Shown piece after piece: positions 6,138 through 45,914 of a stretch of 64,000 bases of DNA. Source of the stretch: Acidimicrobiales bacterium (GTDB lineage Bacteria > Actinomycetota > Acidimicrobiia > Acidimicrobiales > Bog-793); contig DATGLP010000006.1 in the NCBI GenBank assembly GCA_035294085.1, positions 2,595 through 66,594 of the forward strand. Reading direction: 5' to 3'. The first letter of the stretch is position 1, and each line of letters opens with the position of its first letter. The notes under the pieces were generated by a model. It saw only the letters and a program-made list of their open reading frames with translations, searched no databases and was not told the origin of the DNA. The position numbers were made by a program, and so were the translations under genes.

Positions 6138-6150
6138 GCCGGCCTCCCGA

Positions 6151-9840: not shown

Positions 9841-9992
9841 GTCGCCGTCTCGGTCAAGCCCGCTGCCTCGCTTCCGGGCGCATCGCTCGTTCTGGGCAGC
9901 ATCGCAGCCCGGTCGTGTGCCGTCAAGGACGCGACGCATCGCCCCACGAGGTGGTGCAGCGGCGGCCGGGCAGCCGCTGGTCGTCGATGTTT

Positions 9993-24750: not shown

Positions 24751-25674
24751 CTACGTCGGCGAGGCGGCGCCCACGAGCCCCGCGAGGTGCCGCCAGAAGG
24801 CGGCGAGCGCCGGTGGGTGGGAGCGGCGGCGGCGCACGGCGCGAAGCTCGCGCTCGAGCGCGGCGCGGGCCGTGGCGAGGCAGGTGATCCGCCCCGCGGC
24901 GATGTCGCCCTCGACGGCGAGGCGCGGCAGCACGGCGTAGCCGATGCCGGCGAGCACGCCGCCGCGCACCGCGTCGATCTGGTCGAGCTCGAGCACCGGG
25001 CCGCGTCGGTAGGCGGCGCCGAGCAGCTGCGCGGCGAGCGCCTCGGTCCCCGACCCGTCCTCGCGCGCGAGGTAGCGGTGCTCGGCGAGGTCGTCGGCGG
25101 TCACCGGGGCGACCTGCGCGAGCGGGTGGCCGCTCGAGGCCACGAGGACGAGCTCGTCGCGCTCGATCGTCAGCACCTCGAAGCCGTCGCACTCGCCGGG
25201 CCCCTCGATGAGGGCGCAGTCGACCTCGGCGCGCTCGAGCAGCTCGAGCGCCCGCGCCGTGTTCACGAGGCGCGCCTGGACCTCGAGCGCGGGGTGGCGG
25301 GCGACGAAGGGTGCGAGCCACCTCGGGAGGCGGTAGATGCCGACGGTGTTGCTCGCGGCGAGGCGCAGGCGCCCCGAGCCGAGGCTCCGGCGCGAGGCGA
25401 CGACCTCCTCGAGCGCCCGCAGCGCGCCGAGCACGCCGGAAGCGGCGGGCACGAGGGCGGCTCCCTCGGCGGTCAGGCGCACGCGTCGGCCGACCCGTTC
25501 GAGGAGCGGGAGGCCGACGAGCGCCTCGAGCGAGCGCAGCTGGTGGCTCACCGCCGGCTGGCTGCAGCCGAGCTCCTCGGCGGCCCGCGTGACGTGCTCG
25601 TGGCGCGCGACCGCCACGAACGCCCGCAGCTGGGCGAGCGTGATTTCGCTGCCCGGTGGAGGATCGCTTTCCAT
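24751..25674 (-). CDS. LysR family transcriptional regulator
   Basis: 307-aa ORF with N-terminal HTH LAQLRAFVAVARHEHVTRAAEELGCSQPAVSHQLRSLE. Divergent from the molybdoenzyme operon, separated by a 17-nt AT-rich spacer. Confidence 0.9.
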   Translation of the reverse strand: MESDPPPGSEITLAQLRAFVAVARHEHVTRAAEELGCSQPAVSHQLRSLEALVGLPLLERVGRRVRLTAEGAALVPAASGVLGALRALEEVVASRRSLGSGRLRLAASNTVGIYRLPRWLAPFVARHPALEVQARLVNTARALELLERAEVDCALIEGPGECDGFEVLTIERDELVLVASSGHPLAQVAPVTADDLAEHRYLAREDGSGTEALAAQLLGAAYRRGPVLELDQIDAVRGGVLAGIGYAVLPRLAVEGDIAAGRITCLATARAALERELRAVRRRRSHPPALAAFWRHLAGLVGAASPT

Positions 25675-25691
25675 TCTGAAAATTTATCCAA

Positions 25692-27314
25692 ATGAGAGAA
25701 ATGATTCGTTGGACCGTGGGACGGCGCGCCCGTACGCTTCGCTGCCCAGTGGAGGCGGCGAACGAGCGCGCGATCGCGGTGCCGGGACGCGCGCCGAGCG
25801 AGGCCGGCACGACCGTGCGCTGGGCGAAGCTGCTCGACCAGCAACGCTGCATCGGCTGCCACGCCTGCACGACGGCGTGCAAGTCCGAGAACGACGTACC
25901 GCTCGGGGTGACGCGCACCTACGTCAAGTCCGTCGACGTCGGCCGCTTCCCCGCGACCCGACGTGCCTTCCAGGTGACGAGGTGCAACCAGTGCGACGAC
26001 GCGCCCTGCGTCGCCGCGTGCCCGACCGGCGCGATGTTCCGCCGGCTCGACGGCATCGTCGACTTCGACAAGCGGATCTGCATCGGGTGCAAGGCCTGCA
26101 TCGCGGCCTGCCCGTACGACGCGATCTTCATCAACCCAGAGGACCACTCGGCCGAGAAGTGCAACTTCTGCGCGCACCGCCTCGAGGTCGGGCTCGAGCC
26201 GGCCTGCGTCGTCGTCTGCCCGACCGGGGCGATCCTCGTCGGCGACCTGAACGACCCCGCCTCCGCCGTCGCGCGCGCCGTCGGGCGCGCCGCCGTCACG
26301 GTGCGGCGCCCCGAGAAGCACACGAACCCGAAGGTCTTCTACCGCGGCGCGCACGAGGCGACGCTCGACCCCCTCGCCGCGCGCCGCCCCGAGGGCGGCC
26401 TCTTCGCGTGGGCGCTCCAGCGCGGCCGCACGGGCGGCGTCGCCGCGGGCGTCTCGCGTCCTGCCTCAAGCGCCGAGGCGCTCCTCTCCTACGACGTGCC
26501 CCACACCGTCCCGTGGGGCTGGCGGGTGAGCTGCTACACCTGGACGAAGGGGCTCGCCGCCGGCGGCTTCGCGGTCCCCGTCCTGCTCGCCCTCGCCGGG
26601 CGGCTGGGCTTCCAGGCGGCGCTCGTGCGCTTCTTCGCACCCGGCGCGGGCCTCGCCTTCCTCGCGCTCACCGGGGTCCTCCTCATCGCCGACCTGAAGC
26701 ACCCCTGGCGCTTCTACCTCATCTTCACGAAGCACCAGCTCCGGAGCTGGCTCGTGCGGGGAGCCTTCCTCCTCGCCGCCTTCGGCGCCGGCCTCGCCGC
26801 TGACCTCGGCGGGTCCCTCGCCGGCTCGGTGGCGACCGAGCGCGTCGCCGGCGCGTTCGGCGTCGCTCTCGCGCTCGCCGCAGCGTGCTACACGGCCTGG
26901 CTGTTCGCCCAGGCGACGGCGCGCGACCTGTGGCAGAGCCCCCTCCTCGCCCCGCACCTCGCCGTGCAGGCAGCGCTCCTCGGTGCAGCGACGGCGCTCC
27001 TCGCTGGCGAGGCGCTCGGTCCGGCGACGGTACGCCCCCTGCTCGCCTGGCTGGTCTGCTCGTCGGCCGCCGCCCACCTCGCGCTCGTCGGGGCCGAGGT
27101 GACGACGGCGCACCCGAGCGCGCACGGCCGCCTCGCCGTGCGCGAGATGACCCGAGGCAGCCAGGCGGTCGCCTTCTGGGTCGGCATCCTCGCCGTCGCC
27201 GTGGCGCTCGCCGCGCCGCTCGTCGGGGCGATCGCCGCGGCCTTCGCCCTCGGCGGCGTCCTCGCCCACGAGCACGCCTTCGTGCGCGCCGGCCAGTCCG
27301 TGCCGCTCGCGTGA
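25692..27314 (+). CDS. fused 4Fe-4S ferredoxin subunit (PsrB/DmsB-like) and NrfD/PsrC-like 8-TM quinone-interacting membrane subunit
   Basis: Single 540-aa frame. The N-terminal half has four Cys clusters (CIGCHACTTAC, CNQCDDAPCVAAC, CIGCKACIAAC, CNFC....CVVVC). The C-terminal half has about 8 TM helices. No stop separates the halves. The true start may be an internal GTG, since ATG 25692 has no visible RBS. Confidence 0.75.
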   Translation: MREMIRWTVGRRARTLRCPVEAANERAIAVPGRAPSEAGTTVRWAKLLDQQRCIGCHACTTACKSENDVPLGVTRTYVKSVDVGRFPATRRAFQVTRCNQCDDAPCVAACPTGAMFRRLDGIVDFDKRICIGCKACIAACPYDAIFINPEDHSAEKCNFCAHRLEVGLEPACVVVCPTGAILVGDLNDPASAVARAVGRAAVTVRRPEKHTNPKVFYRGAHEATLDPLAARRPEGGLFAWALQRGRTGGVAAGVSRPASSAEALLSYDVPHTVPWGWRVSCYTWTKGLAAGGFAVPVLLALAGRLGFQAALVRFFAPGAGLAFLALTGVLLIADLKHPWRFYLIFTKHQLRSWLVRGAFLLAAFGAGLAADLGGSLAGSVATERVAGAFGVALALAAACYTAWLFAQATARDLWQSPLLAPHLAVQAALLGAATALLAGEALGPATVRPLLAWLVCSSAAAHLALVGAEVTTAHPSAHGRLAVREMTRGSQAVAFWVGILAVAVALAAPLVGAIAAAFALGGVLAHEHAFVRAGQSVPLA

Positions 27315-30268
27315 GGCGGCAAGGTCGAGCCGTGCGCGCCCGGCGGCGTGGCGGCGAGGTCGAGCTCGCCGACCTCGCGGGACTCGTCAGCGCGGCGCGC
27401 CAGGAGGTCGAAGCCCGCGGGGAGACCTTCTACCCGGGGGCCTCTCGGGTCCACCTCGGCGCCTTCCCGCCGAGGGAGCGCTGGGACGACTGGGTGGAGC
27501 TCGACTCCCGAGCCTGGCCGGAGCGGCGCGAGCGGCGCACGATGCTCGTCCCGACGACGTGCTTCAACTGCGAGTCGGCCTGCGGCCTCCTCGCCTACGT
27601 CGACCGGGACACGCTCGAGATCCGCAAGTTCGAGGGGAACCCCGAGCACCCCGGCTCGCGCGGCCGCAACTGCGCCAAGGGGCCGGCGACGCTCAACCAG
27701 GTCACCGACCCCGACCGCATCCTCTACCCGCTGCGACGGGTCGGGCCGCGCGGCAGCGGTCGCTGGGAGCAGATCAGCTGGGACGAGGCGCTCGACCACC
27801 TCGCGCGCCGGATCCGGGCCGCGATCGTCGAGGGGCGCCGCAACGAGGTCATGGTGCACGTCGGCCGGCCCGGCGAGGACGGCTTCACCGAGCGCGTCCT
27901 CGCCGCCTGGGGCGTGGACGGGCACAACTCGCACACGAACGTGTGCTCGAGCGGCGGGCGCACCGGCTACCAGTTCTGGATGGGGATCGACCGGCCGAGC
28001 CCGGACCACGCCAACGCGAAGGTGATCTACCTCATCAGCTCCCACCTCGAGGCGGGCCACTACTTCAACCCGCACGCCCAGCGCATCACCGAGGCACGCG
28101 AGCGCGGCGCCAAGGTGATCGTCTGCGACACGAGGCTGTCGAACACCGCGACGCACGCCGACTGGTGGCTCTCGCCGTGGCCGGGCAGCGAGGCGGCCAT
28201 CAACCTCGCCATCGCCAACCACATCATCCGGACCCGCCGCTACGACCGCGAGTTCGTCCGGCGCTGGTGGAACTGGGCGGAGTACCTCTCGGCGTGCCAC
28301 CCCGAGCTGCCCTGCGAGTTCGAGTCGTTCGAGGCCGTGCTCCACGACCTGTACGCGGACTACACCTTCGAGTTCGCGGCGAGCGAGTCGGGCGTCGACG
28401 CCGCCGTGCTCGCCGAGGTCGCCGAGGCCATCGCCGCAGCGGGGACCCGCTTCTCGGCCCACAACTGGCGCTCCGCGGCGGCCGGCAACCTCGGCGGCTG
28501 GCAGGTCTCCCGGACGCTGTTCCTGCTCTCCGCCCTGCTCGGCGCCGTCGCGACCGAGGGCGGCGTCTTCCCGAACGCGTGGAACAAGTTCGTGCCGCGC
28601 CCGATCCACCTGCCGGGCCACCCCGAGACCTGGAACGAGCTCACCTACCCCCTCGAGTACCCGCTCGCGCAGAACGAGCTCTCCTTCCTGCTGCCGCACT
28701 TCCTGAAGGACGGCCGCGGACGGCTCGACACCTACTTCGTGCGCGTCTACAACCCCGTGTGGACGAACCCCGACGGGATGAGCTGGGTCGAGGTACTGAC
28801 CGACGAGCGTCTCGTCGGCTGCTTCGTGGCGCTCACCCCCACCTGGAGCGAGTCGGCGTTCTTCGCCGACCTCGTCCTGCCGATGGGCCACGGGCCGGAG
28901 CGCCACGACACCCACTCCTACGAGCAGTACGACGGGCAGTGGATCGCCTTCCGCCAGCCCGTGCTGCGCGCCGCGCGCGAGCGCCTCGGGCAGCCCGTCG
29001 CCGACACCCGGGCGGTGAACCCAGGCGAGGTCTGGGAGGAGAACGAGTTCTGGATCGAGCTCTCCTGGCGCATCGACCCCGACGGCGAGCTCGGCATCCG
29101 CCGCTACTTCGAGTCGCGCACCTCGCCGGGGACGAAGCTCGGCGTCGACGAGTACTACGGCTACCTCTTCGAGCACTCCGTTCCCGGCCTCGCCGAGGCC
29201 GCCGCGGACCAGGGCTGCACGCCCCTCGAGTACATGCGCCGCTACGGGGCCTTCGAGATCGCCTCGGGCGTCGGCCAGCGCCACGAGGAGCCGGTGCCCG
29301 ACGCCGAGCTCGTCGACGTCGCCGTCGACCGCTTCGGCCGCGTCTACACGGCCGCTCCGAAGCCCGAGGAGCGAAACATCGTCCCGACCGGGATGCCCCC
29401 GCCCGATCCCGAGGGTCGGCGCGCCGTCGGGGTGCTCGTCGACGGCGTGGTGCGCCGGGGGTTCCCGACGCCGTCGGGCCGGCTCGAGTTCTACAGCTCG
29501 ACGCTCGCTGCATGGGGCTGGCCCGAGCACGCCCTGCCCGGCTACATCCGCAGCCACGTCCACCCCCGTGCGCTCGAACCGGGCCAGGCCGTCCTGCTCT
29601 CGACCTTCCGCCTCCCGACGCAGGTGCACACCCGCTCGGCCAACGCGAAGTGGCTCGACGAGCTCGCGCACGCCAACCCGGTGTGGATCCACCCGAGCGA
29701 CGCCGAGCGCTTCGGCATCGCGGCGACCGGGGACCTCGTGCGCGTCGAGACGGCGATCGGCCACTTCGTGGCGCGTGCCTACGTCACCGAGGGCATCCGC
29801 CCCGGCGTCGTCGCCTGCAGCCACCACATGGGGCGCTGGAAGCCGGAGGGCCATCGGCTGGGTCAGGGCCAGGCCATGGCGACCGTCGGGCTCGAGCGCT
29901 CGCCGTCGAGCTGGGCGCTCAGACGCCGGGCAGGCGTCGCCCCCTACCGCTCGGCCGACGCGGACACCTCGCGGATCTGGTGGACCGACGTGGGCGTGCA
30001 CCAGAACCTCACCTTCCCGGTCCAGCCCGACCCGATCTCCGGGATGCACTGCTGGCACCAGGCCGTACGGGTCGGGCCGGCACGGCCCGGGGACGCCTTC
30101 GGCGACGTCGTCGTCGACACGGCGAAGGCCCGGGACGTCTACCGGCGCTGGCTCGCCCTGACGCGTCCGGCCGACCGGTTCTCGCCCGACGGGACCCGCC
30201 GCCCCTCCTGGCTGATGCGCCCGCTCCGGCCGGCCGACGCGGCCTGGGCGCTCCCGTCGGGACCGTGA
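27311..30268 (+). CDS. molybdopterin (Mo/W-bisPGD) oxidoreductase catalytic subunit, no Tat signal
   Basis: GTG 27311 overlaps the upstream stop (GTGA). GTG 27332 is an alternative start. FS0 motif TTCFNCESACGLL....RGRNCAKG. Candidate Cys ligand in HTNVCSSGG. About 985 aa. The N-terminus (RRQGRAVRARRRGGEVELADL...) has no hydrophobic h-region. Confidence 0.85.
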   Translation: MRRQGRAVRARRRGGEVELADLAGLVSAARQEVEARGETFYPGASRVHLGAFPPRERWDDWVELDSRAWPERRERRTMLVPTTCFNCESACGLLAYVDRDTLEIRKFEGNPEHPGSRGRNCAKGPATLNQVTDPDRILYPLRRVGPRGSGRWEQISWDEALDHLARRIRAAIVEGRRNEVMVHVGRPGEDGFTERVLAAWGVDGHNSHTNVCSSGGRTGYQFWMGIDRPSPDHANAKVIYLISSHLEAGHYFNPHAQRITEARERGAKVIVCDTRLSNTATHADWWLSPWPGSEAAINLAIANHIIRTRRYDREFVRRWWNWAEYLSACHPELPCEFESFEAVLHDLYADYTFEFAASESGVDAAVLAEVAEAIAAAGTRFSAHNWRSAAAGNLGGWQVSRTLFLLSALLGAVATEGGVFPNAWNKFVPRPIHLPGHPETWNELTYPLEYPLAQNELSFLLPHFLKDGRGRLDTYFVRVYNPVWTNPDGMSWVEVLTDERLVGCFVALTPTWSESAFFADLVLPMGHGPERHDTHSYEQYDGQWIAFRQPVLRAARERLGQPVADTRAVNPGEVWEENEFWIELSWRIDPDGELGIRRYFESRTSPGTKLGVDEYYGYLFEHSVPGLAEAAADQGCTPLEYMRRYGAFEIASGVGQRHEEPVPDAELVDVAVDRFGRVYTAAPKPEERNIVPTGMPPPDPEGRRAVGVLVDGVVRRGFPTPSGRLEFYSSTLAAWGWPEHALPGYIRSHVHPRALEPGQAVLLSTFRLPTQVHTRSANAKWLDELAHANPVWIHPSDAERFGIAATGDLVRVETAIGHFVARAYVTEGIRPGVVACSHHMGRWKPEGHRLGQGQAMATVGLERSPSSWALRRRAGVAPYRSADADTSRIWWTDVGVHQNLTFPVQPDPISGMHCWHQAVRVGPARPGDAFGDVVVDTAKARDVYRRWLALTRPADRFSPDGTRRPSWLMRPLRPADAAWALPSGP

Positions 30269-31164
30269 GCGCGCCGGCGGTCACGCGCCGGCAGGCGCCG
30301 GCGGCGGGGCGCTCCGAGCTGCTGCGCGCCCTCGGCGCGCTCTGCGAGCGACCGTCCCCCGAGCACCGCCGGATCGCCGCGTCGCTCGGCCTCCCGCTCC
30401 CGAGTGGCGAGGAGCACACGGCTACCTTCGTCCTCGAGTGCCCGCCGTACGCGTCGGTCTACCTCGGGCCCGACGGCATGCTCGGCGGCGAGGCGACCGA
30501 CCGCGTCGCGGGGTTCTGGCGCGCGCTCGGCTGCGAGCCGCCCACCGAGCCGGACCACCTCGCGAGCATCCTCGCCCTGCTCGCCGCCCTCGGGGAGCTC
30601 GAGGCGGGCGAGGCGCCCGGCTCGTCACGGCGCGCCCGGATCGCCCGGGCTCGCGAGGTGCTCCTCGTCGAGCACCTGTGGTCGTGGGTGCCGGTTTTCC
30701 TCGTCGCCGTGCGCGAGGCGGGCAGCCCCCCCTACCGGCGCTGGGCGCGCCTCGTCGGGGCGGCGCTCGCCATGCCAGCGGGAGGTGCGAGCGCGCGCCG
30801 CGCCCGAGCGTCCGCGCACCTCCCCCTCGCGCTGCGCGCGGCGCCGGCGGTAGCGGAGGAGGGTGTCGACGACGTCGCCCGCCTCGCCACCGTCGCGATC
30901 CGCTCGGGCATGGTGCTGACGCGCCGGCGCCTCGCCAGCGGGGCGGGGAGGCTCGGGCTCGCGGCACGCGTCGGCGAGCGGCGCTTCGCGCTCGAGGCCC
31001 TGCTCGCCGCCGACCGGCGGGCGACGCTCGCCTGGCTGGCGCGCGAGGCGGGCCGCTGGGAGCGGCTCCACCGGGCCGCCCCCCAGCCGCACGCGGGCAT
31101 CCGCGCCTTCTGGCAGGGGCGCGCGCGAGCGACCGCCGCCCTGCTCGCCCGCCTCGCGCCCTAG
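30265..31164 (+). CDS. TorD/NarJ-like redox-enzyme maturation chaperone with ~150-aa C-terminal extension
   Basis: GTG 30265 overlaps the upstream stop (GTGA). PPYASVYLGPDGMLGGEATDRVAGFWRALG....PDHLASILALLAALGE resembles the TorD-family core. The second half is Ala/Arg-rich and I do not recognise it. Confidence 0.6.
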   Translation: MSAPAVTRRQAPAAGRSELLRALGALCERPSPEHRRIAASLGLPLPSGEEHTATFVLECPPYASVYLGPDGMLGGEATDRVAGFWRALGCEPPTEPDHLASILALLAALGELEAGEAPGSSRRARIARAREVLLVEHLWSWVPVFLVAVREAGSPPYRRWARLVGAALAMPAGGASARRARASAHLPLALRAAPAVAEEGVDDVARLATVAIRSGMVLTRRRLASGAGRLGLAARVGERRFALEALLAADRRATLAWLAREAGRWERLHRAAPQPHAGIRAFWQGRARATAALLARLAP

Positions 31165-33006: not shown

Positions 33007-33125
33007 TTACCCACCGGGCACCGTTCGTGTCACCGCCCGTGACGGCCCTCGTCGAGCCTCGCGAGGACGGGCATCCCCGAGCGTCGGGCAGGAGCACCGT
33101 CCCCGAACTTGACCGCCACCGCGAG

Positions 33126-33147
33126 TTGGTATACCTTTGCATACAAG
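33126..33147. promoter_or_regulatory. GntR-type operator candidate TTGGTATAC-CTTT-GCATACAAG
   Basis: AT-rich box 97 nt upstream of the binding-protein gene. It contains the perfect palindrome GGTATACC. The same GTATAC-N4-GYRTAC-AA arrangement recurs at 43221..43243. TTGACC (33109..33114) lies upstream. Confidence 0.45.
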
Positions 33148-33243
33148 CCGTCCGCCCCGAGCGGGAGGGAGAAGGCCCGCCGCAGGCGGGTTGGGCAGCG
33201 GACGGTTCGCCGGCGATCGCGTGGAGTGACAAGGGGGAGCACC

Positions 33244-34473
33244 ATGTCGACCGGAGCCGTCCCGACCGCACAGTCCAGTTCGCGCCACCTCGAGCGCCGA
33301 CCGAGACGGAGGCTCGGTTCCGCCGCCGTCGCCGGCCTGGCCGCCGCACTGGCCACGGCCCTCGCCGGCACGCCGGCGCTCGCCGCGCCTCGGCGCGCGG
33401 CGCACGGCACGGCCGTCGCGCACAAGGCGAAGGGCAAGAAGAAGCGGCTCAGCCAGGCGAACATCACGGTCACGGGGAACTACACGGCCGACATGCTCCC
33501 GGCGTGGGTCGCCGAGAACGCCGGCTTCTTCAAGAAGAACGGCCTGAACGCCCAGATCGTCAACTCCTCGGGCGGCTCGGCGAGCGGCGCGATCGCCGCC
33601 TTCATCGGCAACCACGAGGACTTCCTGCTCACCGCGACGCCCACCGAGATGGCGGCGCGCCAGGCCGGCGAACCGGTCATCGCCGTCTACAACGTGCGCC
33701 GCGGCGGACCCTTCTGGATCACGATCAGCTCGAGCGTCGCGCGGGCGAAGGGCATCCCGTCGGCCGGCTCGACCCCCGCGCAGGCGAGGAAGCAGCTCGC
33801 CGCCCTGCGCCGCACCCACCTCACCGTCGCCGTGACGAGCCTCGCTGCACCCGCCTACGACTACGCGGTGGCCGTCTTCCGCCAGAACGGCGTGTCGTAC
33901 GGACCGAACGGCGACGTGACCTTCGTCCCCGTCGGCAACGCCTCGGCCCAGCAGGCCGCCGTGGAGCACGGGACGACCGACGCGCTCGTCAACGATCCGC
34001 CGACCGCCGTCCTGCCCGGCACGGTGACCATCAACCTCGGGCTCCTCCCGCCGGTCGCGAGCGCCGACACTCTCTACGCGGTGACGACCGTCTCCTTCCT
34101 GCGGGCGCACCGCGACAGCGTCCAGGCGTTCGTGAACGCGCTCACCGAGGCCTGGGCCTGGGCCCACGAGCACCCAACCCTCGCCGAGCGGATCAGCGAC
34201 GCCTACAACAAGACGATCGACATCACCGACCCGACGGCGCTCAGCAAGATCTTCCACGGCGACTACGACTTCTGGGTCGGCCCGTCGATGACGCTCGGCG
34301 GCTTCACGACGGCCGAGCGCATCGCCAACATGGGGATCAAGGGCAGCACCCTGTCGGTTACCTACGGCCAGCTCGTCGACAACGTCTTCGTCAAGAACGC
34401 GCTGCGGCAGCTGCCCGCGTACCTGCGCAACAAGCTGCCGGCATCGCTGCGCCGGGCGCTGCGCGGCGGCTAG
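33244..34473 (+). CDS. ABC transporter substrate-binding protein, NMT1/SsuA/TauA-like (NitT/TauT family)
   Basis: ATG 33244. Signal-like N-terminus RRPRRRLGSAAVAGLAAALATALAGTPALAAP. The mature part resembles the NMT1/THI5-like periplasmic binding fold. Confidence 0.7.
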   Translation: MSTGAVPTAQSSSRHLERRPRRRLGSAAVAGLAAALATALAGTPALAAPRRAAHGTAVAHKAKGKKKRLSQANITVTGNYTADMLPAWVAENAGFFKKNGLNAQIVNSSGGSASGAIAAFIGNHEDFLLTATPTEMAARQAGEPVIAVYNVRRGGPFWITISSSVARAKGIPSAGSTPAQARKQLAALRRTHLTVAVTSLAAPAYDYAVAVFRQNGVSYGPNGDVTFVPVGNASAQQAAVEHGTTDALVNDPPTAVLPGTVTINLGLLPPVASADTLYAVTTVSFLRAHRDSVQAFVNALTEAWAWAHEHPTLAERISDAYNKTIDITDPTALSKIFHGDYDFWVGPSMTLGGFTTAERIANMGIKGSTLSVTYGQLVDNVFVKNALRQLPAYLRNKLPASLRRALRGG

Positions 34474-34606
34474 ACGGCGGCGAGCCGTCCCGCGACGTCG
34501 GGCCTCCGCAGGCCGCCAGCTGGGGGAGATCCGGGGCCGGCGAGCACGCGACGAACCGGGCGCGCACGCCACCGAGCACGCCACGACGAAGGAGCGAGGA
34601 AGGGGA

Positions 34607-36016
34607 ATGGACGCCACGACGCGCCGACTGGTCGACTACACCCTCGGGTTTGCGTGGGCGGACCTGACAGAGTCCGCGCGCGACCTCGCCGTTCGTCACC
34701 TCGCCGACTCGCTCGCCTGCGCGATCGCGGGCTACTTCACCGAGCCGGCGCAGGCCGCGGTGCGCGTCGCGTCACGCGTCGGCAGCGACACGCCGGTGAC
34801 CGTGCTGGGCGCGGGCATCACCTCGGCACCTGCCTACGGCGCCTTCGCCAACACCGTGATGGTTCGCGCGCTCGACTGGAACGACGGCATGCTCGCTCGA
34901 GGCGGCGGACACCCGAGCGACCTCGTCGCCGGGCTCCTCGCCGCGGCCGAGGTCGTCGGGGCCTCAGGCGTCGAGCTCCTCGAGGCGATGACGCTCTCCT
35001 ACGAGGTCCTCGGCGCCCTCGGCAACGCCGCGCCCGTCCACGAACGCGGCTGGGACCAGGGCACCTTCATGGGGGTGGCCGCCGCCCTCGGCATCGGCCG
35101 GCTCTACGGCCTCAGTGCGGACCAGCTCGCCAACGCCGTGTCGATCTCGATCGTCCCGGCGATCCCGCTCATGGTGACGCGTCGCGGCGAGCTCTCGCAC
35201 TGGAAGGGCGCGGCCACCGCCGCGGCGATCCTCAACGCGACGAACGCCGTTGCGCTGGCGCGCGAGGGCTTCACCGGGCCCAGCGAGCCCTTCGAGGGGC
35301 GCCACGGCGTCATCGAGCAGGTTTCGGGCCCCCTTGAGCTGTCCCTGCCCGTCTACCCGGACGGACCACGGGTCGTCGAGCTCTCGCACCTGAAGGCGTA
35401 CCCCGCCGAGACCCACGCGCAGGGCCTGCTCGGCATCGTCCCCGAGATCCGCGCCTGGACGGCGATCGAGGAGATCGCCTCCGTCGAGGTCGAGGCCTAC
35501 CGCATCGTCTACAGCGAGATCGGCTCGCACCCGAGTGTGTGGGACCCCAAGACGCGCGAGACGGCCGACCACAGCCTCCCCTACCTCCTCGCCGTCGCGA
35601 TGGTCGACGGCGAGGTCACCCTGGACTCCTTCCGCCCCGAGCGCATCGCGGACCCGGCGCTGCGCCCCCTGATGGCGAAGATCAGGATCGTCGAGGACCC
35701 CGCACTCACCGCCAACTACCGGCCGCCCGGGCTCGAGATCGCCGGGAACCCCTGCGTCCGGATCACGATCCGGAAGACGACGGGAGAGACCTTCGCGCGC
35801 GAGGTCACCTTCCCGAAGGGCCACTTCCGCAACCCACTCACACGCGAGGACATCGACGCCAAGCTGCAGAAGATCTGCGCCGGCGTCGTGAAGGACGACG
35901 TGCGCGACGAGATCAGAGCCGCGCTCTGGGAGGTCGCGCGCGCACCCGACGTGCGCGGCCTCCTCGCCCTCCTCGGCAGCTTCGCCGCCGACGGTGCGGC
36001 GCGCGGCACACGATGA
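34607..36016 (+). CDS. MmgE/PrpD family protein (paralogue 1)
   Basis: 469-aa ORF. FANTVMVRALDWNDGMLARGGGHPSD, RGWDQGTF and ETADHSLPYLLAVA are MmgE/PrpD hallmarks. Confidence 0.85.
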   Translation: MDATTRRLVDYTLGFAWADLTESARDLAVRHLADSLACAIAGYFTEPAQAAVRVASRVGSDTPVTVLGAGITSAPAYGAFANTVMVRALDWNDGMLARGGGHPSDLVAGLLAAAEVVGASGVELLEAMTLSYEVLGALGNAAPVHERGWDQGTFMGVAAALGIGRLYGLSADQLANAVSISIVPAIPLMVTRRGELSHWKGAATAAAILNATNAVALAREGFTGPSEPFEGRHGVIEQVSGPLELSLPVYPDGPRVVELSHLKAYPAETHAQGLLGIVPEIRAWTAIEEIASVEVEAYRIVYSEIGSHPSVWDPKTRETADHSLPYLLAVAMVDGEVTLDSFRPERIADPALRPLMAKIRIVEDPALTANYRPPGLEIAGNPCVRITIRKTTGETFAREVTFPKGHFRNPLTREDIDAKLQKICAGVVKDDVRDEIRAALWEVARAPDVRGLLALLGSFAADGAARGTR

Positions 36017-41373: not shown

Positions 41374-43023
41374 TCAGGCGTCCTGGCCGAACCACAGGCG
41401 CCGGTAGGGGATGCTGATCACCTGGCGGGAGATGCGCACGTCGATGATCGTCGGTCGGGGCTGCGCGACGAAGGCCGCCGTCGCGTCCCGCACCTCGTCG
41501 ATCGTGCGCGCGAGGGCGCCCGCCCCGCCCATGGCTCGCGCCACGGCACCGAGGTCCGGCGTGGGAATGCGCGCCAGCTCGGCCTTCAGTCCCTTCGCGA
41601 CGGACTTCTGGTACTCGGCGCCCAGTGCCTCGTCGTTCATCACGACGACGAGGAGGGGCAGGCGGTAGCGCACGGCCGTCTCGAACTCGGCGAGGTGCAT
41701 GAGGAACCCGGCGTCGCCTTCGACGAGGAACGCGGGCCGCTTGCCCTTCGCGACGAGCGCCCCGATGGCGGTCGTGAGCCCCTGGCCGATGCAGCCGAAG
41801 TGCTGGTTCGCGAGCAGCCACGACCGCCCACGGTTGAACAGCATGGTGCTGAAGCAGATCTGCTGGCCGCCCCCGAGGACGAGACCGATCTCGGGCGGCA
41901 CGATCGAGTCGATGACGCGGCAGGCCTCGCGCGGATCGACCGTGCCCGGCTCGAGGTCGAAGCGCGCCGGGTCGTCGAACGCGCTCGCCAGCTTCTCCTT
42001 CACCTCCGGCGTGTGGTAGCCGACGGCGGTCACCGACCGCTCCTCGAGGAGGCGGTCGAGCGCCTCGACGCCGAGGCGCGCGTCGGTGTGCACGAAGCAG
42101 TCCGCGAGACGGCCGTCGCCCATGACGACGTTGGGCCGCGAGTCGAGGTGGACGACGCGAGCGTTCGGGTACAGCAGGCCGTGCTCGGTCGTGTACCGAT
42201 TGAGGCTCGCGCCGACGCCGATGACACAGTCCGCCTCTTGGAACAGCTCGATGGCAGAGCGGGTCGCGTACAGGCCCGAGATCCCCGCGTGAAACTCGGC
42301 GTCGTTCAGCCAGTTCTTCGCCATGAGCGTCGTCGCGATGAGCGCGCCGATGCGCGACGCGAGCCGACGGACGGCGTCGCCGGCCCCGGCGCGCATCGCG
42401 CCGCGCCCGACGACGATCACGGGTCGCTCGCTCGAGGCGACGATCTCGGCCGCCTCCTTCAGGCGCTCGGGGTTCGGGTACGCAGGGGGGGTCCGCAGGA
42501 GCGCGTGGGAGGGCACGTACTCCTCGTCATCGTCGACGATCTCCTGCTGGACGTCCATCGGGGCGCTCAGCATCACCGGCCTCGACTCCAGCCGGGCGAG
42601 GTAGAAGGCGCGCTGCACCGCCTTGTAGGCGGTATCCGCCGCGGTGACGCGCACGAAGGCGGCCTCGATCGCCTCGGCGAAGCGCTGCTGGTCGAGCCAC
42701 TGCACCGCCTCGTCGTCGCCCCAGGCGACCTCCCCGCAGAAGGCGACGAGGGGCGTGCGGGCCCGGCTGGCGACGAGCATGGTCGTCGCCAGCTGGGCGC
42801 ACCCGGGACCGCTCGTCGTCGTGCACACCCCCGGCTCGCCGGCGAGGCGGGCAAAGCCGTCCGCCATGGCGAGGCCCGCTCCCTCGTGCCGCACCTCGTA
42901 CTGCTCGACGCCGAGGTCGTCGAGGGCGTTCATCCAGTACATGTTGGCGTCGCCGAGCATGCCGAACACCGCGGAGGTGCCCTCCCGCGCGAACGCCCTC
43001 GCCAGTGCTTCGTAGACCCGCAC
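41374..43023 (-). CDS. thiamine diphosphate-dependent enzyme, paralogue B of 36013..37662
   Basis: GTG 43023 (VRVYEALARAFAREG...) with GGAG upstream. It looks collinear with paralogue A, including VRHEGAGLAMADGFAR and GDAGFLMHLAEFETAVRYRLPLLVVVMND. Confidence 0.85.
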   Translation of the reverse strand: MRVYEALARAFAREGTSAVFGMLGDANMYWMNALDDLGVEQYEVRHEGAGLAMADGFARLAGEPGVCTTTSGPGCAQLATTMLVASRARTPLVAFCGEVAWGDDEAVQWLDQQRFAEAIEAAFVRVTAADTAYKAVQRAFYLARLESRPVMLSAPMDVQQEIVDDDEEYVPSHALLRTPPAYPNPERLKEAAEIVASSERPVIVVGRGAMRAGAGDAVRRLASRIGALIATTLMAKNWLNDAEFHAGISGLYATRSAIELFQEADCVIGVGASLNRYTTEHGLLYPNARVVHLDSRPNVVMGDGRLADCFVHTDARLGVEALDRLLEERSVTAVGYHTPEVKEKLASAFDDPARFDLEPGTVDPREACRVIDSIVPPEIGLVLGGGQQICFSTMLFNRGRSWLLANQHFGCIGQGLTTAIGALVAKGKRPAFLVEGDAGFLMHLAEFETAVRYRLPLLVVVMNDEALGAEYQKSVAKGLKAELARIPTPDLGAVARAMGGAGALARTIDEVRDATAAFVAQPRPTIIDVRISRQVISIPYRRLWFGQDA

Positions 43024-43220
43024 CTCACCAGCTCCCTTCGACCACGGCGACGCACCCGCCGCCGATGCACCTCGACGACGGGCCGACGGACCCGATCCCG
43101 CGGTCGGGGCCACCGCGTACCTCGCCCGCACCCCTCGCCACGGCGACGGGGCCGGTCGCCGGGACCCCTCCAGCGTGCCCTCGAGATCGAGCACCGTTGA
43201 CGCCCGACCGAGACGGCCGT

Positions 43221-43243
43221 ATCGTATACAGTTGTGTACAAAG
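43221..43243. promoter_or_regulatory. GntR-type operator candidate ATCGTATAC-AGTT-GTGTACAAAG
   Basis: The only AT-rich patch in the 351-nt divergent region between ThDP paralogue B and PrpD-like paralogue 2. Same architecture as 33126..33147. Confidence 0.45.
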
Positions 43244-43374
43244 CGTCAAGGCCCGCCCGCCGCCGCGCGTGGCCCGGCCCGATGGTGCGGCCGAGCGCGG
43301 CGGGGTGACGGGCGCGGCGCTCGCGCCAGGTTCGTGGCGCGCAGCGAGACGAAGGGGGGCGAGGGGAGCCGCTC

Positions 43375-44793
43375 GTGGACGCGACGACAGAGAAGCTGGT
43401 CGCCTACGCCCTCGCTGCCGAGACCGACCTGCGCCCCGCGGTGCGGATCGCCGCGCTGCAGCGCGTCGTCGATTCGGTGGCCTGCGCGATCGCCGGCTAC
43501 GACACGGCCCCGGCGCGCGTCGCCCGGCGCCTCGCCCGCCGCGTCCGCGCCGACCTGCCCGCGACGGTGTTCGGCGACGGCACCCCCACGGCGCCCGAGC
43601 TCGCTGCGTTCGCCAACACCGTGATGGTGCGCGCCCTCGACTGGAACGACGGGATGCTCGCGCGCGGCGGGGGGCACCCGAGCGACATGATCCCCGCCGT
43701 GCTCGCGGCCGGCGAGGTCGCCCACGCCTCGGGGCGGGAGGTCCTCGCCGCCATCGTGCTCGCCTACGAGGTCCTCGGCTCGCTCGGCAGCGCCACCGGG
43801 CTGCGAGAGCGGGGGTGGGACCAGGGGACGTTCATCGCGGTGGCGAGCGCCCTCGCGATCGGCAGGCTGTCGGGCCTCGGCGCCGACGACCTCGCCAACG
43901 CCGTGTCGCTCGCCATCGTGCCGAACGTCCCGCTGCGAGTCACTCGTGTCGGCCACCTGTCCATGTGGAAGGGGTGCGCGTCGGCTGCCGCCGTGCGCAA
44001 CGCCCTGTTCGCGGTGTCGCTGGCGAGCGAAGGCATGACCGGTCCCGCCGAGCCGTTCGAGGGCAGGTCGGGTCTGTGGGACCAGGTGACGGGGCCCTTC
44101 GAGTTCCAGCTGCCGGTGAACCCGGGTGGTCCGAGCGTGGTCGAGCTCTCGCACCTGAAGCCGTACCCGGCCGAGTCCCACTCCCAGGCGCTCATCTCGC
44201 TCGCGCCGGCAATCCGAGCTGCCGTCGACCCCACGGACATCCGCGCCATCGAGGTCGAGACCTACTGGCACGCCTTCAACGAGATCGGCTCGGACCCGGC
44301 GAAGTGGGACCCCGACACTCGCGAGACCGCCGACCACAGCCTGCCCTACCTGCTCGCTGTGGCGCTCCTCGACGGCACGGTCACGCCCGCCTCCTTCACC
44401 CCCGAGCGCCTCGCCGACCCGGCGCTGCGCGACCTCATGGCGAAGATCGAGGTACGCGAGAACCCGGAGTTCACGGCCCAGTACCGGCCGACCGGCCGCG
44501 AGATCGCCGGCTCGCCGCGCACCCGTATCACCGTCCGAGGTGGCACCGGCGCCCCGTTCGTGGCCGAGGTCGGCTTCCCGAAGGGCCACTACCGCAACCC
44601 GATGTCGCCCGGGGAGACGGATGCGAAGCTCGAGGCGGCCTGCGCGCCACTCGTGGCTCCCGCGAGACGCGAGGAGATCCGCGCCGCGTTCTGGTCGCTC
44701 GATTCGCTGCACGACGTCGGCGACGCGATCAGAACGCTCTCGTCCCTCGCCCCCCCGACGACGGGCGACGCGGTGGGCGTCGGCGACGACTAG
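43375..44793 (+). CDS. MmgE/PrpD family protein (paralogue 2)
   Basis: 472-aa ORF with GAGGGGAG before GTG 43375. It shares FANTVMVRALDWNDGMLARGGGHPSD, RGWDQGTF and ETADHSLPYLLAVA with paralogues 1 and 3. Confidence 0.85.
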   Translation: MDATTEKLVAYALAAETDLRPAVRIAALQRVVDSVACAIAGYDTAPARVARRLARRVRADLPATVFGDGTPTAPELAAFANTVMVRALDWNDGMLARGGGHPSDMIPAVLAAGEVAHASGREVLAAIVLAYEVLGSLGSATGLRERGWDQGTFIAVASALAIGRLSGLGADDLANAVSLAIVPNVPLRVTRVGHLSMWKGCASAAAVRNALFAVSLASEGMTGPAEPFEGRSGLWDQVTGPFEFQLPVNPGGPSVVELSHLKPYPAESHSQALISLAPAIRAAVDPTDIRAIEVETYWHAFNEIGSDPAKWDPDTRETADHSLPYLLAVALLDGTVTPASFTPERLADPALRDLMAKIEVRENPEFTAQYRPTGREIAGSPRTRITVRGGTGAPFVAEVGFPKGHYRNPMSPGETDAKLEAACAPLVAPARREEIRAAFWSLDSLHDVGDAIRTLSSLAPPTTGDAVGVGDD

Positions 44794-45869: not shown

Positions 45870-45914
45870 CGGTCGCAGGGGCAGCCGGTCGGCACGAACG
45901 ACGGAGGCACGGAC

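What the first reader, a model, noticed from the sequence alone, without database searches (positions are those of the whole stretch)
25692..30268. Tat-less molybdoenzyme with FeS and NrfD subunits fused into one polypeptide (SoeABC-like architecture)
The operon is divergent from a LysR regulator. It encodes a single 540-aa protein that joins a four-cluster ferredoxin (PsrB/DmsB-like) to an 8-TM NrfD/PsrC-like domain. A ~985-aa Mo-bisPGD catalytic subunit follows, with a GTGA overlap.

Neither protein shows a twin-arginine signal (RRxFLK plus a hydrophobic region). The catalytic N-terminus is charged (RRQGRAVRARRRGGEVELADL) and precedes the CxxCxxxC...C FS0 motif by about 70 aa.

Most Psr/Phs/Ttr/Arr-type enzymes are Tat-exported, have three separate subunits and are encoded in the order A-B-C. 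The cytoplasm-facing exceptions known to me are NarGHI and the sulfite-oxidising SoeABC. I recall the SoeA subunit as being of similar size.

The substrate is unknown. Sulfite, perhaps released by desulfonation in the neighbouring island, is one speculative candidate.
Basis: partly seen in the sequence, partly recalled or inferred. Interest (0 to 1): 0.7.

Follow-up and report, generated by a model that had tools for sequence, protein, structure and literature searches.

The report
Inward-facing molybdoenzyme with fused membrane anchor
This operon encodes a very widespread but unnamed membrane-bound molybdenum enzyme that faces the cell interior, has its iron-sulfur subunit fused to its membrane anchor, and most likely oxidises the toxic sulfite made when soil bacteria detoxify sulfide.

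Summary
One gene joins a 16-cysteine, four-cluster ferredoxin to an 8-helix NrfD/PsrC anchor.

Neither protein has a Tat signal, in the window or in 240 homologues. The fusion is uninterrupted in 81 of 81 related loci. Loop charge bias puts the FeS domain in the cytoplasm, which means the anchor is inverted relative to PsrC.

The family is not rare. There are more than 8000 relatives at 70-80% identity in Actinomycetota, Acidobacteriota, Gemmatimonadota and Chloroflexota, plus Myxococcota and haloarchaea at about 50%. All carry only generic names.

The nearest unfused relatives keep the B-C-A gene order and a canonical Tat signal. The family is therefore an inward-flipped, fused offshoot of exported enzymes.

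Its commonest neighbour is a CstB-like persulfide dioxygenase-rhodanese gene (31 of 83 loci, usually adjacent). DsrE, TusA, SQR and candidate persulfide-sensing regulator types also recur.

Best reading: a SoeABC-like cytoplasmic sulfite:quinone oxidoreductase that finishes the SQR-PDO pathway. The substrate is inferred, not shown. I could not compare it with a genuine SoeA sequence. The window's own neighbourhood contains no recognisable sulfur-oxidation genes.

The parts
24751..25674 (-). Divergent LysR-family regulator (307 aa).
   Evidence: Pfam HTH_1 and LysR_substrate. A LysR gene accompanies the operon in 16 of 83 close loci, and 6 of those 16 also carry the persulfide dioxygenase gene.
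25675..25778 (.). Intergenic control region with a 45-nt AT-rich island (25675-25720). It probably holds divergent promoters and a LysR box. This is inferred.
   Evidence: Sequence read directly. The simple sigma-70 consensus scan found nothing. Homologue lengths place the real start of the next gene at about 25779.
25779..27314 (+). Fused electron-transfer and anchor subunit (511 aa from GTG 25779; the open frame extends up to ATG 25692). The N-terminal part is a four-[4Fe-4S] ferredoxin of PsrB/TtrB type. A conserved linker of about 55 residues follows, then an 8-TM NrfD/PsrC domain.
   Evidence: Pfam Fer4_11 and NrfD. NCBIfam TtrB, NrfC and DsrO are the best hits, all below their cut-offs. 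There are 16 invariant Cys and a conserved linker. AF2 gives eight helices with pLDDT above 90. Foldseek matches PsrC with TM-score 0.80 and PsrB with 48% identity. The frame is fused in 81 of 81 loci. K+R count is 8-10 on the termini side and 0-1 on the opposite side.
27311..30268 (+). Mo-bisPGD catalytic subunit (985 aa from GTG 27311, or 978 aa from GTG 27332). It has a conserved, non-hydrophobic N-terminal extension of about 55 residues, an FS0 cluster motif and a Cys212 Mo ligand.
   Evidence: Pfam. No NCBIfam model reaches its cut-off; the best is PhsA at 192 bits against 694. Closest PDB chains are ArrA (7e-33) and PsrA (2e-31). N-termini of 120 homologues lack Tat signals. Invariant residues are listed.
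30265..31164 (+). Dedicated NarJ/TorD/DmsD-family maturation chaperone (299 aa). Its start overlaps the stop of the Mo gene.
   Evidence: Pfam Nitrate_red_del at 7.9e-15. It occupies the same position in Conexibacter and Aciditerrimonas. It is present in 57 of 67 close loci that have enough downstream sequence.

Best explanation
The operon (lysR <> BC-A-D) encodes a membrane-bound complex iron-sulfur molybdoenzyme whose catalytic side faces the cytoplasm.

Proposed assembly and electron path:
- The NarJ/TorD-like chaperone binds the charged N-terminal helix of the catalytic subunit. This helix sits where exported relatives carry their Tat signal. The chaperone holds the apoprotein until Mo-bisPGD is inserted.
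- The mature A subunit docks on the ferredoxin domain of the BC protein.
- Electrons taken from the substrate at the Cys-ligated Mo centre pass through FS0 and the four [4Fe-4S] clusters. [quoted passage not shown]
- The NrfD domain is inserted upside-down relative to PsrC, so the PsrB-PsrC interface is kept. Because nothing is exported in folded form, B and C can be one polypeptide.

The most likely reaction is sulfite + H2O + (mena)quinone -> sulfate + quinol. That is the job SoeABC does in sulfur oxidisers. Here it would serve as the last step of the heterotrophic sulfide-detoxification route: SQR -> persulfide -> persulfide dioxygenase -> sulfite.

What is shown: the domain content, the absence of export signals, the conserved fusion, the charge bias, the Cys ligand position, the chaperone, and the neighbourhood statistics.

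What is inferred: the orientation (from sequence rules), the direction of electron flow, the quinone as acceptor, and sulfite as substrate.
For: Architecture and orientation:
- Pfam and NCBIfam domain content.
- No Tat or Sec signal in the window proteins or in 240 homologues.
- K+R count of 8-10 on the loops on the same side as the FeS domain, against 0-1 on the other side, in five fused members. Three Tat-dependent unfused relatives show 3/3, 8/5 and 2/2.
- PsrC has both termini on the side where PsrB binds (PMC8076601), so an N-terminal fusion preserves that interface.
- The fusion is present in 81 of 81 loci.

Descent from exported enzymes:
- The nearest unfused relatives (P0248, P0266, P0307) have the B-C-A(-D) order (shown for P0248 and P0266) and canonical Tat signals on A. 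Those signals are followed by the same PP(F/K)E(K/R)W motif.
- In an NJ tree these relatives branch next to the Tat-less fused clade, apart from PhsA, TtrA and ArxA.

Sulfur link:
- In unbiased clustering of neighbours from 83 loci at 68% identity or more, the top family is a 450-470 aa MBL-fold plus rhodanese protein (30 loci). The probe search gives 31 of 83, with 21 of those within 550 nt of the operon edge. Among loci with at least 5 kb on both sides it is 17 of 44.
- That neighbour matches S. aureus 3r2u at 2e-48 (which I recall to be CstB), A. acidocaldarius 3tp9 at 5e-63 and human persulfide dioxygenase ETHE1 (4chl).
- DsrE and TusA are present in 12 and 11 loci, directly downstream of the chaperone in several of them. 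A type III SQR is present in 3.
- Regulators next to the operon belong to families that include known persulfide sensors: ArsR/BigR-like, CsoR/CstR-like (T. roseum) and sigma-54 type (Myxococcota).
- Rhodococcus jostii RHA1 pRHL3 has dsrE-tusA-BC-A-mrp flanked by three PDO-rhodanese genes.
- The Myxococcota relative has pdo-yeeE/yedE-BC-A.
- The literature reports tusA next to canonical soeABC (PMC11507549).
- The Cys Mo ligand and cytoplasmic location match the published description of SoeA and bacterial SreA (PMC10100899).
Against: - There is no biochemical or genetic evidence for any member.
- The window itself has no PDO, DsrE, TusA or SQR gene within 64 kb. Its operon is controlled by a LysR regulator of unknown ligand.
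- Only about 40% of orthologous loci show the sulfur neighbours.
- I could not obtain a genuine SoeA sequence, so relatedness to SoeABC is untested.
- The gene order (BC-A-D) differs from soeABC.
- CstB-type dioxygenase-rhodanese fusions are reported to release thiosulfate rather than free sulfite (from my own knowledge). Thiosulfate, or sulfide plus sulfite, therefore remain possible substrates.
- The bacterial sulfur reductase Sre, which is also cytoplasm-facing, shows that this kind of enzyme can work as a reductase.
- The AlphaFold model of the catalytic subunit was poor (pLDDT 49), so the active site could not be inspected.
Confidence: 0.55

Rival explanations
1. It is a cytoplasm-facing quinol-oxidising reductase of sulfane sulfur, polysulfide, thiosulfate or tetrathionate, like the bacterial sulfur reductase SreABC of Aquifex. 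It would lower the intracellular reactive-sulfur load by reducing it to sulfide or thiosulfate.
For: The best profile and structure matches are reductases: PhsA, PsrA, ArrA and TtrB. Bacterial SreA is listed as cytoplasmic, Cys-ligated and clustering with SoeA (PMC10100899). The DsrE and TusA neighbours are sulfane-sulfur carriers that could deliver persulfide to the enzyme.
Against: The hosts are mostly aerobic soil heterotrophs. The tight linkage is to an O2-dependent persulfide dioxygenase, which removes the same sulfane sulfur oxidatively, so a reductase beside it would be futile. All similarity scores to reductase models are far below their family cut-offs.
Confidence: 0.17
2. It runs the thiosulfate reductase reaction in reverse inside the cell (sulfide + sulfite -> thiosulfate + 2 e- to quinone), or it otherwise acts on thiosulfate, the product of CstB-like dioxygenase-rhodanese fusions.
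For: PhsA is the best NCBIfam hit for the catalytic subunit. The neighbours are PDO-rhodanese fusions. The Myxococcota locus contains YeeE/YedE-type (Sulf_transp) genes, a family I recall as linked to thiosulfate uptake. Reversibility of Phs is known from the literature (my own knowledge).
Against: There is no precedent for a cytoplasmic enzyme of this kind. The PhsA score is 192 bits against a cut-off of 694. Identity to Salmonella PhsA is only 25%.
Confidence: 0.08
3. It acts on a substrate unrelated to sulfur, such as arsenite, antimonite, selenium oxyanions, formate or an organic compound. The sulfur genes would be neighbours for regulatory or mobility reasons.
For: More than half of the loci, including the window, show no sulfur genes nearby. 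ArsR-family regulators are frequent. The more distant Azoarcus relative sits behind an arx/aio-like PhnD-histidine kinase-sigma54 regulator set. Some UniRef names say 'formate dehydrogenase'.
Against: No arsenic-resistance or selenium genes emerged among the recurrent neighbour families in the unbiased clustering. The Mo ligand is Cys in a Psr/Arr-type context. Identity to ArxA is only 25%. The PDO gene is by far the most frequent neighbour across several phyla, which chance or mobility does not explain.
Confidence: 0.1
4. It is an ordinary Tat-exported periplasmic enzyme whose signal peptide was missed through a wrong start codon, or the fusion is an assembly or frameshift artefact.
For: High-GC DNA makes start-codon calls uncertain. 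The upstream frame of the Mo gene is open back to 26885.
Against: The upstream extension overlaps the NrfD coding region by 430 nt and reads as Arg/Pro-rich nonsense without a Tat motif. All 120 homologues of A and all 120 of BC lack Tat signals and share conserved N-termini. The frame is fused in 81 of 81 loci. The linker is conserved.
Confidence: 0.02

Closest known systems
SoeABC, sulfite:quinone oxidoreductase of Allochromatium vinosum and Aquifex aeolicus (EC 1.8.5.6)
   Same: Both are a Mo-bisPGD catalytic subunit with an N-terminal FeS cluster, a four-cluster ferredoxin and a haem-free 8-TM NrfD/PsrC anchor. Neither has an export signal, so the catalytic side faces the cytoplasm and the anchor is predicted to be inverted (PMC8076601). 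Both have a Cys Mo ligand (PMC10100899). The catalytic subunit is about 110 kDa in both, as I recall for SoeA. Both show a genomic link to cytoplasmic sulfite production and to TusA.
   Different: The gene order is BC-A-D, not A-B-C. B and C are one polypeptide. A dedicated NarJ/TorD-type chaperone is present. In the 360 listed homologues the family carries only generic names from NCBI, UniRef and JGI. The KO-based Bohai Sea survey reported no SoeABC, although a MAG named after one of its samples carries this operon.
Polysulfide/thiosulfate reductase PsrABC/PhsABC (structure 2vpw)
   Same: These are the best structural and profile matches. PsrA scores 2e-31 and PsrB is 48% identical over 174 columns. 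PsrC matches with TM-score 0.80. The Mo ligand is Cys.
   Different: Psr and Phs are Tat-exported and face the periplasm, have three separate subunits and the A-B-C order. The catalytic subunit is about 200 residues shorter. The PhsA model score is 192 bits against a cut-off of 694, and identity to PhsA is 25%.
Tetrathionate reductase TtrBCA
   Same: The gene order is B-C-A. TtrB is the top NCBIfam hit for the ferredoxin domain (194 bits). The catalytic subunit is large, about 1000 aa.
   Different: Ttr is exported. TtrA is only 25% identical over 301 residues. The scores are far below the Ttr cut-offs of 416 and 1750. TtrC has 9 TM helices (PMC8076601).
Respiratory nitrate reductase NarGHJI (also present in this window at 3180-9939)
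   Same: It is a cytoplasm-facing CISM with a NarJ-family chaperone. By analogy with NarG (my own knowledge), the chaperone is proposed to bind a non-exported N-terminal 'remnant' peptide. Both are cases of an inward-facing enzyme related to exported ones.
   Different: Nar has an Asp Mo ligand, a dihaem cytochrome b anchor (NarI) instead of NrfD, and a type II catalytic subunit. The window A subunit scores only 29 bits on the narG model.
Uncharacterised Tat-dependent B-C-A(-D) enzymes (P0248, P0266, P0307; Azoarcus sp. KH32C pAZKH locus)
   Same: These are the nearest sequence relatives outside the fused clade, at 30-39% identity. They have the same gene order (seen for P0248, P0266 and Azoarcus), and the P0248 and Azoarcus loci also have a TorD-type chaperone. 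P0248, P0266 and P0307 carry the same PPxExW motif ahead of FS0.
   Different: They have separate B and C genes and a canonical twin-arginine signal on A. Their anchor loops lack the positive charge bias. Their function is unknown.

Membership tests
Complex iron-sulfur molybdoenzyme (CISM) / DMSO reductase (MopB) superfamily with NrfD-type anchor | Mo-bisPGD catalytic subunit with Molybdopterin and Molydop_binding domains and an N-terminal FS0 Cys motif | tested here: met
   Pfam PF04879, PF00384 and PF01568. C84, C87, C91 and C121 are invariant.
Complex iron-sulfur molybdoenzyme (CISM) / DMSO reductase (MopB) superfamily with NrfD-type anchor | Four-cluster ferredoxin electron-transfer subunit | tested here: met
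   Fer4_11. There are 16 invariant Cys in four groups. Identity to PsrB is 48%.
Complex iron-sulfur molybdoenzyme (CISM) / DMSO reductase (MopB) superfamily with NrfD-type anchor | Haem-free NrfD/PsrC membrane subunit with two four-helix bundles | tested here: met
   Pfam NrfD. AF2 predicts eight helices. Foldseek matches PsrC with TM-score 0.80 and ActC.
SoeABC sulfite dehydrogenase (quinone) | No Tat or Sec signal on any subunit; catalytic side in the cytoplasm | tested here: met
   (no signal in 240 homologues). (positive-inside bias). The orientation itself is inferred from sequence and was not measured.
SoeABC sulfite dehydrogenase (quinone) | Cys-ligated Mo centre | tested here: met
   Cys212 aligns with the Mo-ligand cysteine position of PsrA and ArrA, as I recall it, and is invariant.
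SoeABC sulfite dehydrogenase (quinone) | Three separate subunits encoded in the order soeA-soeB-soeC | tested here: not met
   The order here is BC(fused)-A-chaperone.
SoeABC sulfite dehydrogenase (quinone) | Catalytic subunit clusters with characterised SoeA (A. vinosum, A. aeolicus) in phylogeny, or is assigned to KEGG K21307 | tested here: inconclusive
   No SoeA sequence could be obtained with these tools. Indirect evidence points away from membership. JGI gives only the COG name 'anaerobic selenocysteine-containing dehydrogenase'. The KO-based Bohai Sea study counted no SoeABC, although a MAG named after its sample BHB10-26 (L082) carries this operon. The nearest relatives in the tree are Tat-dependent B-C-A enzymes.
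SoeABC sulfite dehydrogenase (quinone) | Sulfite-dependent quinone reduction | not testable with these tools
   This needs an enzyme assay. The only support is genomic association with sulfite-producing persulfide dioxygenase.
PsrABC/PhsABC polysulfide/thiosulfate reductase | Tat signal on the catalytic subunit and score above the PhsA equivalog cut-off | tested here: not met
   There is no Tat signal. The score is 192 bits against a cut-off of 694.
TtrBCA tetrathionate reductase | Scores above the TtrA and TtrB equivalog cut-offs; exported A and B subunits | tested here: not met
   TtrB scores 194 against 416 and TtrA 98 against 1750. Identity to TtrA is 25% over 301 aa. There are no signals. 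Only the B-C-A order is shared.
NarGHI respiratory nitrate reductase | NarG-type subunit (Asp ligand, type II) with a cytochrome b anchor | tested here: not met
   The narG model scores 29 bits against a cut-off of 1084. The anchor is NrfD. A genuine narGHJI lies elsewhere in the window.

The most novel reading that the evidence does not exclude
This is a phylogenetically separate, so far unrecognised sulfite (or sulfite/thiosulfate):menaquinone oxidoreductase. It arose independently of SoeABC from a Tat-exported B-C-A enzyme by three changes: loss of the signal peptide, inversion of the NrfD anchor, and fusion of the ferredoxin to the anchor. It would supply the 'missing' direct sulfite-oxidising step of the SQR-persulfide dioxygenase pathway in aerobic Actinomycetota, Acidobacteriota, Gemmatimonadota, Chloroflexota, Myxococcota and some haloarchaea. 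At least one KEGG-based sulfur-cycle survey (the Bohai Sea study) appears to have missed it.
Probability: 0.4. Interest if true: 0.75.

Novelty: new variant of a known kind. Interest (0 to 1): 0.62.

Why it matters
Heterotrophic bacteria that detoxify sulfide with SQR and persulfide dioxygenase produce sulfite inside the cell. For many of them no sulfite-oxidising enzyme is annotated. A 2025 survey of 5,233 Bohai Sea MAGs found persulfide dioxygenase in 1,818 MAGs. It counted complete Sat-AprAB in 567, SorA in 37, SUOX in 32 and no SoeABC (PMC12345210).

If this family is the enzyme that closes the gap, three things follow:
- Sulfur-cycle gene catalogues (KEGG and HMM sets) would be undercounting sulfite oxidation in soils and sediments.
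- Electrons from sulfide detoxification would feed the quinone pool in very abundant soil and freshwater lineages, including Nanopelagicales.
- The family would be a clean natural example of a respiratory enzyme being turned to face the other way: signal peptide lost but its chaperone kept, anchor charge bias reversed, and subunits fused once Tat export no longer forbids it.

Genetically tractable or culturable hosts exist, namely Rhodococcus jostii RHA1, R. opacus, Nocardioides and Thermomicrobium roseum. The hypothesis is therefore directly testable.

Tried and rejected
- **Getting a genuine SoeA sequence for a phylogeny.** All routes failed. NCBIfam returned no SoeA model among its hits. 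PDB has no Soe structure among the hits. tblastn against plasmids found only family members, Arx, Phs, Ttr, Dms, Fdh and Nap/Nas. The names of distant cluster representatives were generic. The afdb50 fold library was unavailable. The supplement of the MopB phylogeny paper holds only links.
- **AlphaFold2 model of the catalytic subunit.** It came out at pLDDT 49 because the alignment was shallow (28 sequences at 74% identity or more to the query). It was unusable for active-site inspection or fold search. The BC model is good only for the NrfD part, so docking of the FeS domain could not be read.
The TPP enzyme at 41377-43245 is not identifiable as Xsc (212 bits against a cut-off of 620). The binding protein and ABC ATPase are generic NitT/TauT-type. 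I rejected this as evidence.
- **Single-linkage clustering of all ORFs in the loci.** It collapsed into one giant cluster because of spurious high-GC ORFs. I redid it after removing ORFs that overlap the anchor genes.
- **Promoter and terminator scan.** It was uninformative in this GC-rich DNA.
- **Literature searches.** I looked for a described FeS-NrfD fusion or a link between PDO and a molybdoenzyme, and found no description. [quoted passage not shown]
- **Tat-exported enzyme with a missed start, or a frameshift artefact.** Considered and rejected.
Full report
**1. What is in the window**

The window is about 74% G+C. Between 24.7 and 31.2 kb lie a LysR-family regulator on the minus strand (24751-25674) and, divergently, three co-directional genes.

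The first gene has an open frame from 25692 to 27314. It joins a PsrB/TtrB-like ferredoxin (Pfam Fer4_11) to an NrfD/PsrC membrane domain.
- In an alignment of 30 family members, 16 cysteines in four CxxCxxCxxxC-type groups are invariant. So is much of the linker of about 55 residues between the two domains.
- AlphaFold2 predicts eight transmembrane helices with pLDDT above 90.
- Foldseek matches that part to PsrC of Thermus polysulfide reductase (TM-score 0.80 on the target). The ferredoxin part is 48% identical to PsrB.

The second gene (27311 or 27332 to 30268) is a Mo-bisPGD catalytic subunit.
- Its FS0 motif is C84-x2-C87-x3-C91...C121.
- Cys212 is invariant and aligns with the Mo-ligand cysteine position of PsrA and ArrA, as I recall that position.

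The third gene (30265-31164) overlaps the stop of the second by 4 nt. It is a NarJ/TorD/DmsD-family chaperone (Pfam Nitrate_red_del).

**2. Corrections to coordinates**

Homologues of the fused protein are about 509 aa and cover 92% of the 540-aa frame. Only about 19 residues precede their first cluster motif.

The ATG at 25692 sits 17 nt from the lysR start, inside a 45-nt AT-rich island. The real start is most likely GTG 25779, which gives 511 aa. The island is then probably the divergent promoter and LysR box; this is inferred.

For the catalytic gene, GTG 27311 (the GTGA overlap) and GTG 27332 (used in a public gene call, P0001) are both possible.

**3. No export signal; orientation**

Neither protein has a twin-arginine motif followed by a hydrophobic stretch. 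The same holds for 120 homologues of each.

The catalytic subunit instead has a well-conserved, charged and non-hydrophobic N-terminal segment: LxxLGxRVSAARAxVEARGETFYPGxSRVHLAAFPPKERWDDWVEL.

The loops of the NrfD domain that lie on the same side as its termini, and therefore on the side of the fused ferredoxin, carry 8-10 Lys+Arg. The opposite side carries 0-1. This holds in five fused members from different lineages.

In PsrC both termini lie on the periplasmic side, where PsrB binds (PMC8076601). The simplest reading is that the whole B-C module is preserved but inserted the other way round, as has been proposed for SoeC.

A folded four-cluster domain fused in front of eight helices, with no signal, is hard to reconcile with any export route. 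So the fusion itself argues for a cytoplasmic location. The orientation remains an inference from sequence rules.

**4. The fusion is conserved, not an artefact**

All 81 related loci with data have one continuous frame from the ferredoxin to the NrfD part. These include Thermomicrobium roseum, Rhodococcus jostii RHA1, a Myxococcota MAG and Natrinema.

**5. Distribution**

Each protein search returned 8000 scored relatives.
- The top 120 for the catalytic subunit are 75-81% identical.
- The top 120 for the fused protein are 65-70% identical, and all carry both domains.

The 80 best (69-79% identity) come mostly from Actinomycetota, Pyrinomonadaceae and other Acidobacteriota, and Gemmatimonadota. 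Single or few loci come from Chloroflexota, Dormiibacterota, a Gammaproteobacterium and a Mycobacterium.

A second subfamily, about 58% identical, occurs in cultured Rhodococcus, Nocardioides, Kribbella, Actinomadura and Amycolatopsis, and in freshwater Nanopelagicales. Haloarchaeal megaplasmids carry members at about 50% identity.

All names given by NCBI, UniRef and JGI in these 360 listed homologues are generic. No NCBIfam model reaches its cut-off.

**6. Where it comes from**

At 50%-identity clustering the family collapses to a handful of representatives. The next relatives are P0248, P0266 and P0307.
- P0248 and P0266 have separate B and C genes in the same B-C-A order, and P0248 also has a TorD-type chaperone.
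- All three have canonical Tat signals on A (for example MAMHRRTFLKAAALTSGAAAAVVG). These are followed by the same 'RYPPFExW' motif that follows the charged helix in the Tat-less family.

In a neighbour-joining tree the Tat-less fused proteins form one clade. These Tat-dependent enzymes branch immediately outside it, apart from PhsA, TtrA and ArxA.

The family therefore looks like an inward-flipped, fused derivative of exported B-C-A enzymes. The dedicated chaperone and the conserved N-terminal helix parallel the NarJ-NarG 'remnant signal' situation; that comparison rests on established knowledge of Nar and was not tested here.

The B-C-A order is shared with ttrBCA, but TtrA is only 25% identical over 301 residues.

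**7. What it probably does**

The window's own neighbours give no hint. They are 2-oxoacid dehydrogenase E1-beta and E2 genes, a PIG-L protein, an MFS transporter, thiC, PrpD-like proteins and generic transporters. No PDO, DsrE, TusA or SQR gene lies within 64 kb.

Orthologous loci are informative. I clustered all neighbours from 83 loci at 68% identity or more, after removing ORFs that overlap the operon.
- The most frequent family by far is a 450-470 aa metallo-beta-lactamase-fold plus rhodanese protein (30 loci). LysR is next (16), then an ArsR-type regulator (9).
- Probe searches give 31 of 83 loci with this protein. In 21 of them it lies within 550 nt of the operon edge. It is present in 17 of the 44 loci that have at least 5 kb on both sides.
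- The protein matches 3r2u from S. aureus (2e-48), which I recall to be CstB, and 3tp9 (5e-63). It also matches human persulfide dioxygenase ETHE1 (4chl) and several bacterial chains that I recall as persulfide dioxygenases.
- DsrE-like and TusA genes occur in 12 and 11 loci. In several they lie directly downstream of the chaperone. Type III SQR occurs in three.

Three other loci show the same theme:
- On pRHL3 of R. jostii RHA1 the arrangement is dsrE-tusA-BC-A-mrp. It is flanked by three such dioxygenase genes, rhodanese, thioredoxin and ArsR- and CsoR-family regulators.
- In T. roseum a CsoR-family regulator directly precedes the operon. This regulator lacks the copper-binding histidine, which by my knowledge of that family makes it CstR-like.
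- In a Myxococcota relative the order is sigma-54 activator, PDO-rhodanese, two YeeE/YedE-type genes, BC, A.

Six of the 16 LysR-linked loci also carry the dioxygenase. This ties the window's LysR-type arrangement to the same context.

Persulfide dioxygenase makes sulfite in the cytoplasm. A cytoplasm-facing, quinone-linked, Cys-ligated molybdoenzyme beside it is most simply a sulfite dehydrogenase, which is the role SoeABC plays in sulfur oxidisers. tusA next to canonical soeABC is reported in the literature (PMC11507549).

I put about 0.55 on sulfite:quinone oxidoreductase. About 0.17 goes to a cytoplasmic sulfane, thiosulfate or tetrathionate reductase of the Aquifex Sre kind. About 0.08 goes to a thiosulfate-forming or thiosulfate-using variant. 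About 0.1 goes to a non-sulfur substrate.

**8. Is it SoeABC?**

It shares these defining architectural features: three modules, no export signal, an NrfD anchor and a Cys ligand. It differs in gene order, in the B-C fusion and in having a chaperone.

I could not obtain a SoeA sequence, so the decisive phylogenetic test is open. The indirect evidence argues against simple membership:
- JGI gives these proteins only the COG name, whereas a Psr-like relative (P0296) received a specific name that I take to be KO-derived.
- A study that identified sulfur genes by IMG KO assignment counted no SoeABC in its MAGs (PMC12345210). Yet a Gemmatimonadota MAG named after its sample BHB10-26 (L082) carries this operon followed by dsrE, tusA and the dioxygenase gene.

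A published MopB phylogeny notes a large and unusually conserved 'bSreA/SoeA' radiation that collapses at 50% identity (PMC10100899). The present family behaves in the same way and might be part of that radiation. This cannot be decided here.

**9. Verdict**

- The Tat-less, fused, SoeABC-like architecture is right.
- The sulfite guess is supported, but by evidence other than the one offered.
- The arrangement is a widespread family, not a curiosity of this genome.

I rate it a new variant of a known kind: a cytoplasm-facing CISM with a fused, inverted NrfD anchor. It is moderately to highly interesting because it offers a testable candidate for an unannotated sulfite-oxidising step in abundant soil, sediment and freshwater heterotrophs, and because it is a clear case of topological inversion of a respiratory enzyme.

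Noticed in passing
window 3180-9939 (-): A complete respiratory nitrate reductase cluster narGHJI is present. narG is 6151-9939, narH about 4551-6137, narJ 3938-4549 and narI within 3180-3900. All four score above their NCBIfam cut-offs. The genome therefore has the classical inward-facing molybdoenzyme with its own NarJ, in addition to the fused-anchor enzyme with its own chaperone.
   Followed up: partly
window 25675-25720: A 45-nt AT-rich island (ttctgaaaatttatccaaatgagagaaatgattcgttgg) sits in a 74% GC context between lysR and the fused gene. It is probably a divergent promoter and LysR-binding region.
   Followed up: partly
loci L027, L029, L035, L036, L038, L045, L047, L052, L056, L059, L063, L064, L070 (Acidobacteriota, mostly Pyrinomonadaceae): Between the fused BC gene and the catalytic gene lie 0.6-3.2 kb of extra DNA. 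In part of these loci the extra DNA holds small genes, mainly a DinB_2-family protein (about 176 aa) and a DUF1905/OmdA protein (about 172 aa), each recovered in five loci. Their role is unknown.
   Followed up: partly
L083 (R. jostii RHA1 pRHL3), L087 (Natrinema), L019, L020, L079: An Mrp/NBP35-type FeS-cluster carrier ATPase gene follows the catalytic gene. In RHA1 and Natrinema it comes directly after the catalytic gene and no chaperone gene is annotated. In L019, L020 and L079 it comes after the chaperone. This suggests a dedicated FeS-loading factor.
   Followed up: no
L085 (Azoarcus sp. KH32C plasmid pAZKH, 55687-70137): A Tat-dependent relative with B-C-A-TorD order (32% identity) sits behind a PhnD-like binding protein, a histidine kinase and a sigma-54 regulator. 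This is the same regulator set as in the arx arsenite-oxidase clusters seen in L088 and L090. It may be an uncharacterised oxyanion enzyme.
   Followed up: no
window 41377-43245 (-), 33043-34470 (+), 45870-46751 (+): The putative 'desulfonation' genes are a TPP enzyme that cannot be assigned to Xsc (212 bits against a cut-off of 620, and similar to acetolactate synthase), an NMT1-type binding protein and a TauB-like ABC ATPase below its cut-off. Three PrpD/MmgE-family genes (34292-36013, 43309-44790, 51546-53150) cluster in the same region.
   Followed up: partly
window 30265-31164: The chaperone is about 100 residues longer than typical TorD/DmsD proteins (299 aa here, about 325 aa in relatives). 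Only residues 49-145 match the Pfam domain. The C-terminal half has no recognised domain.
   Followed up: no
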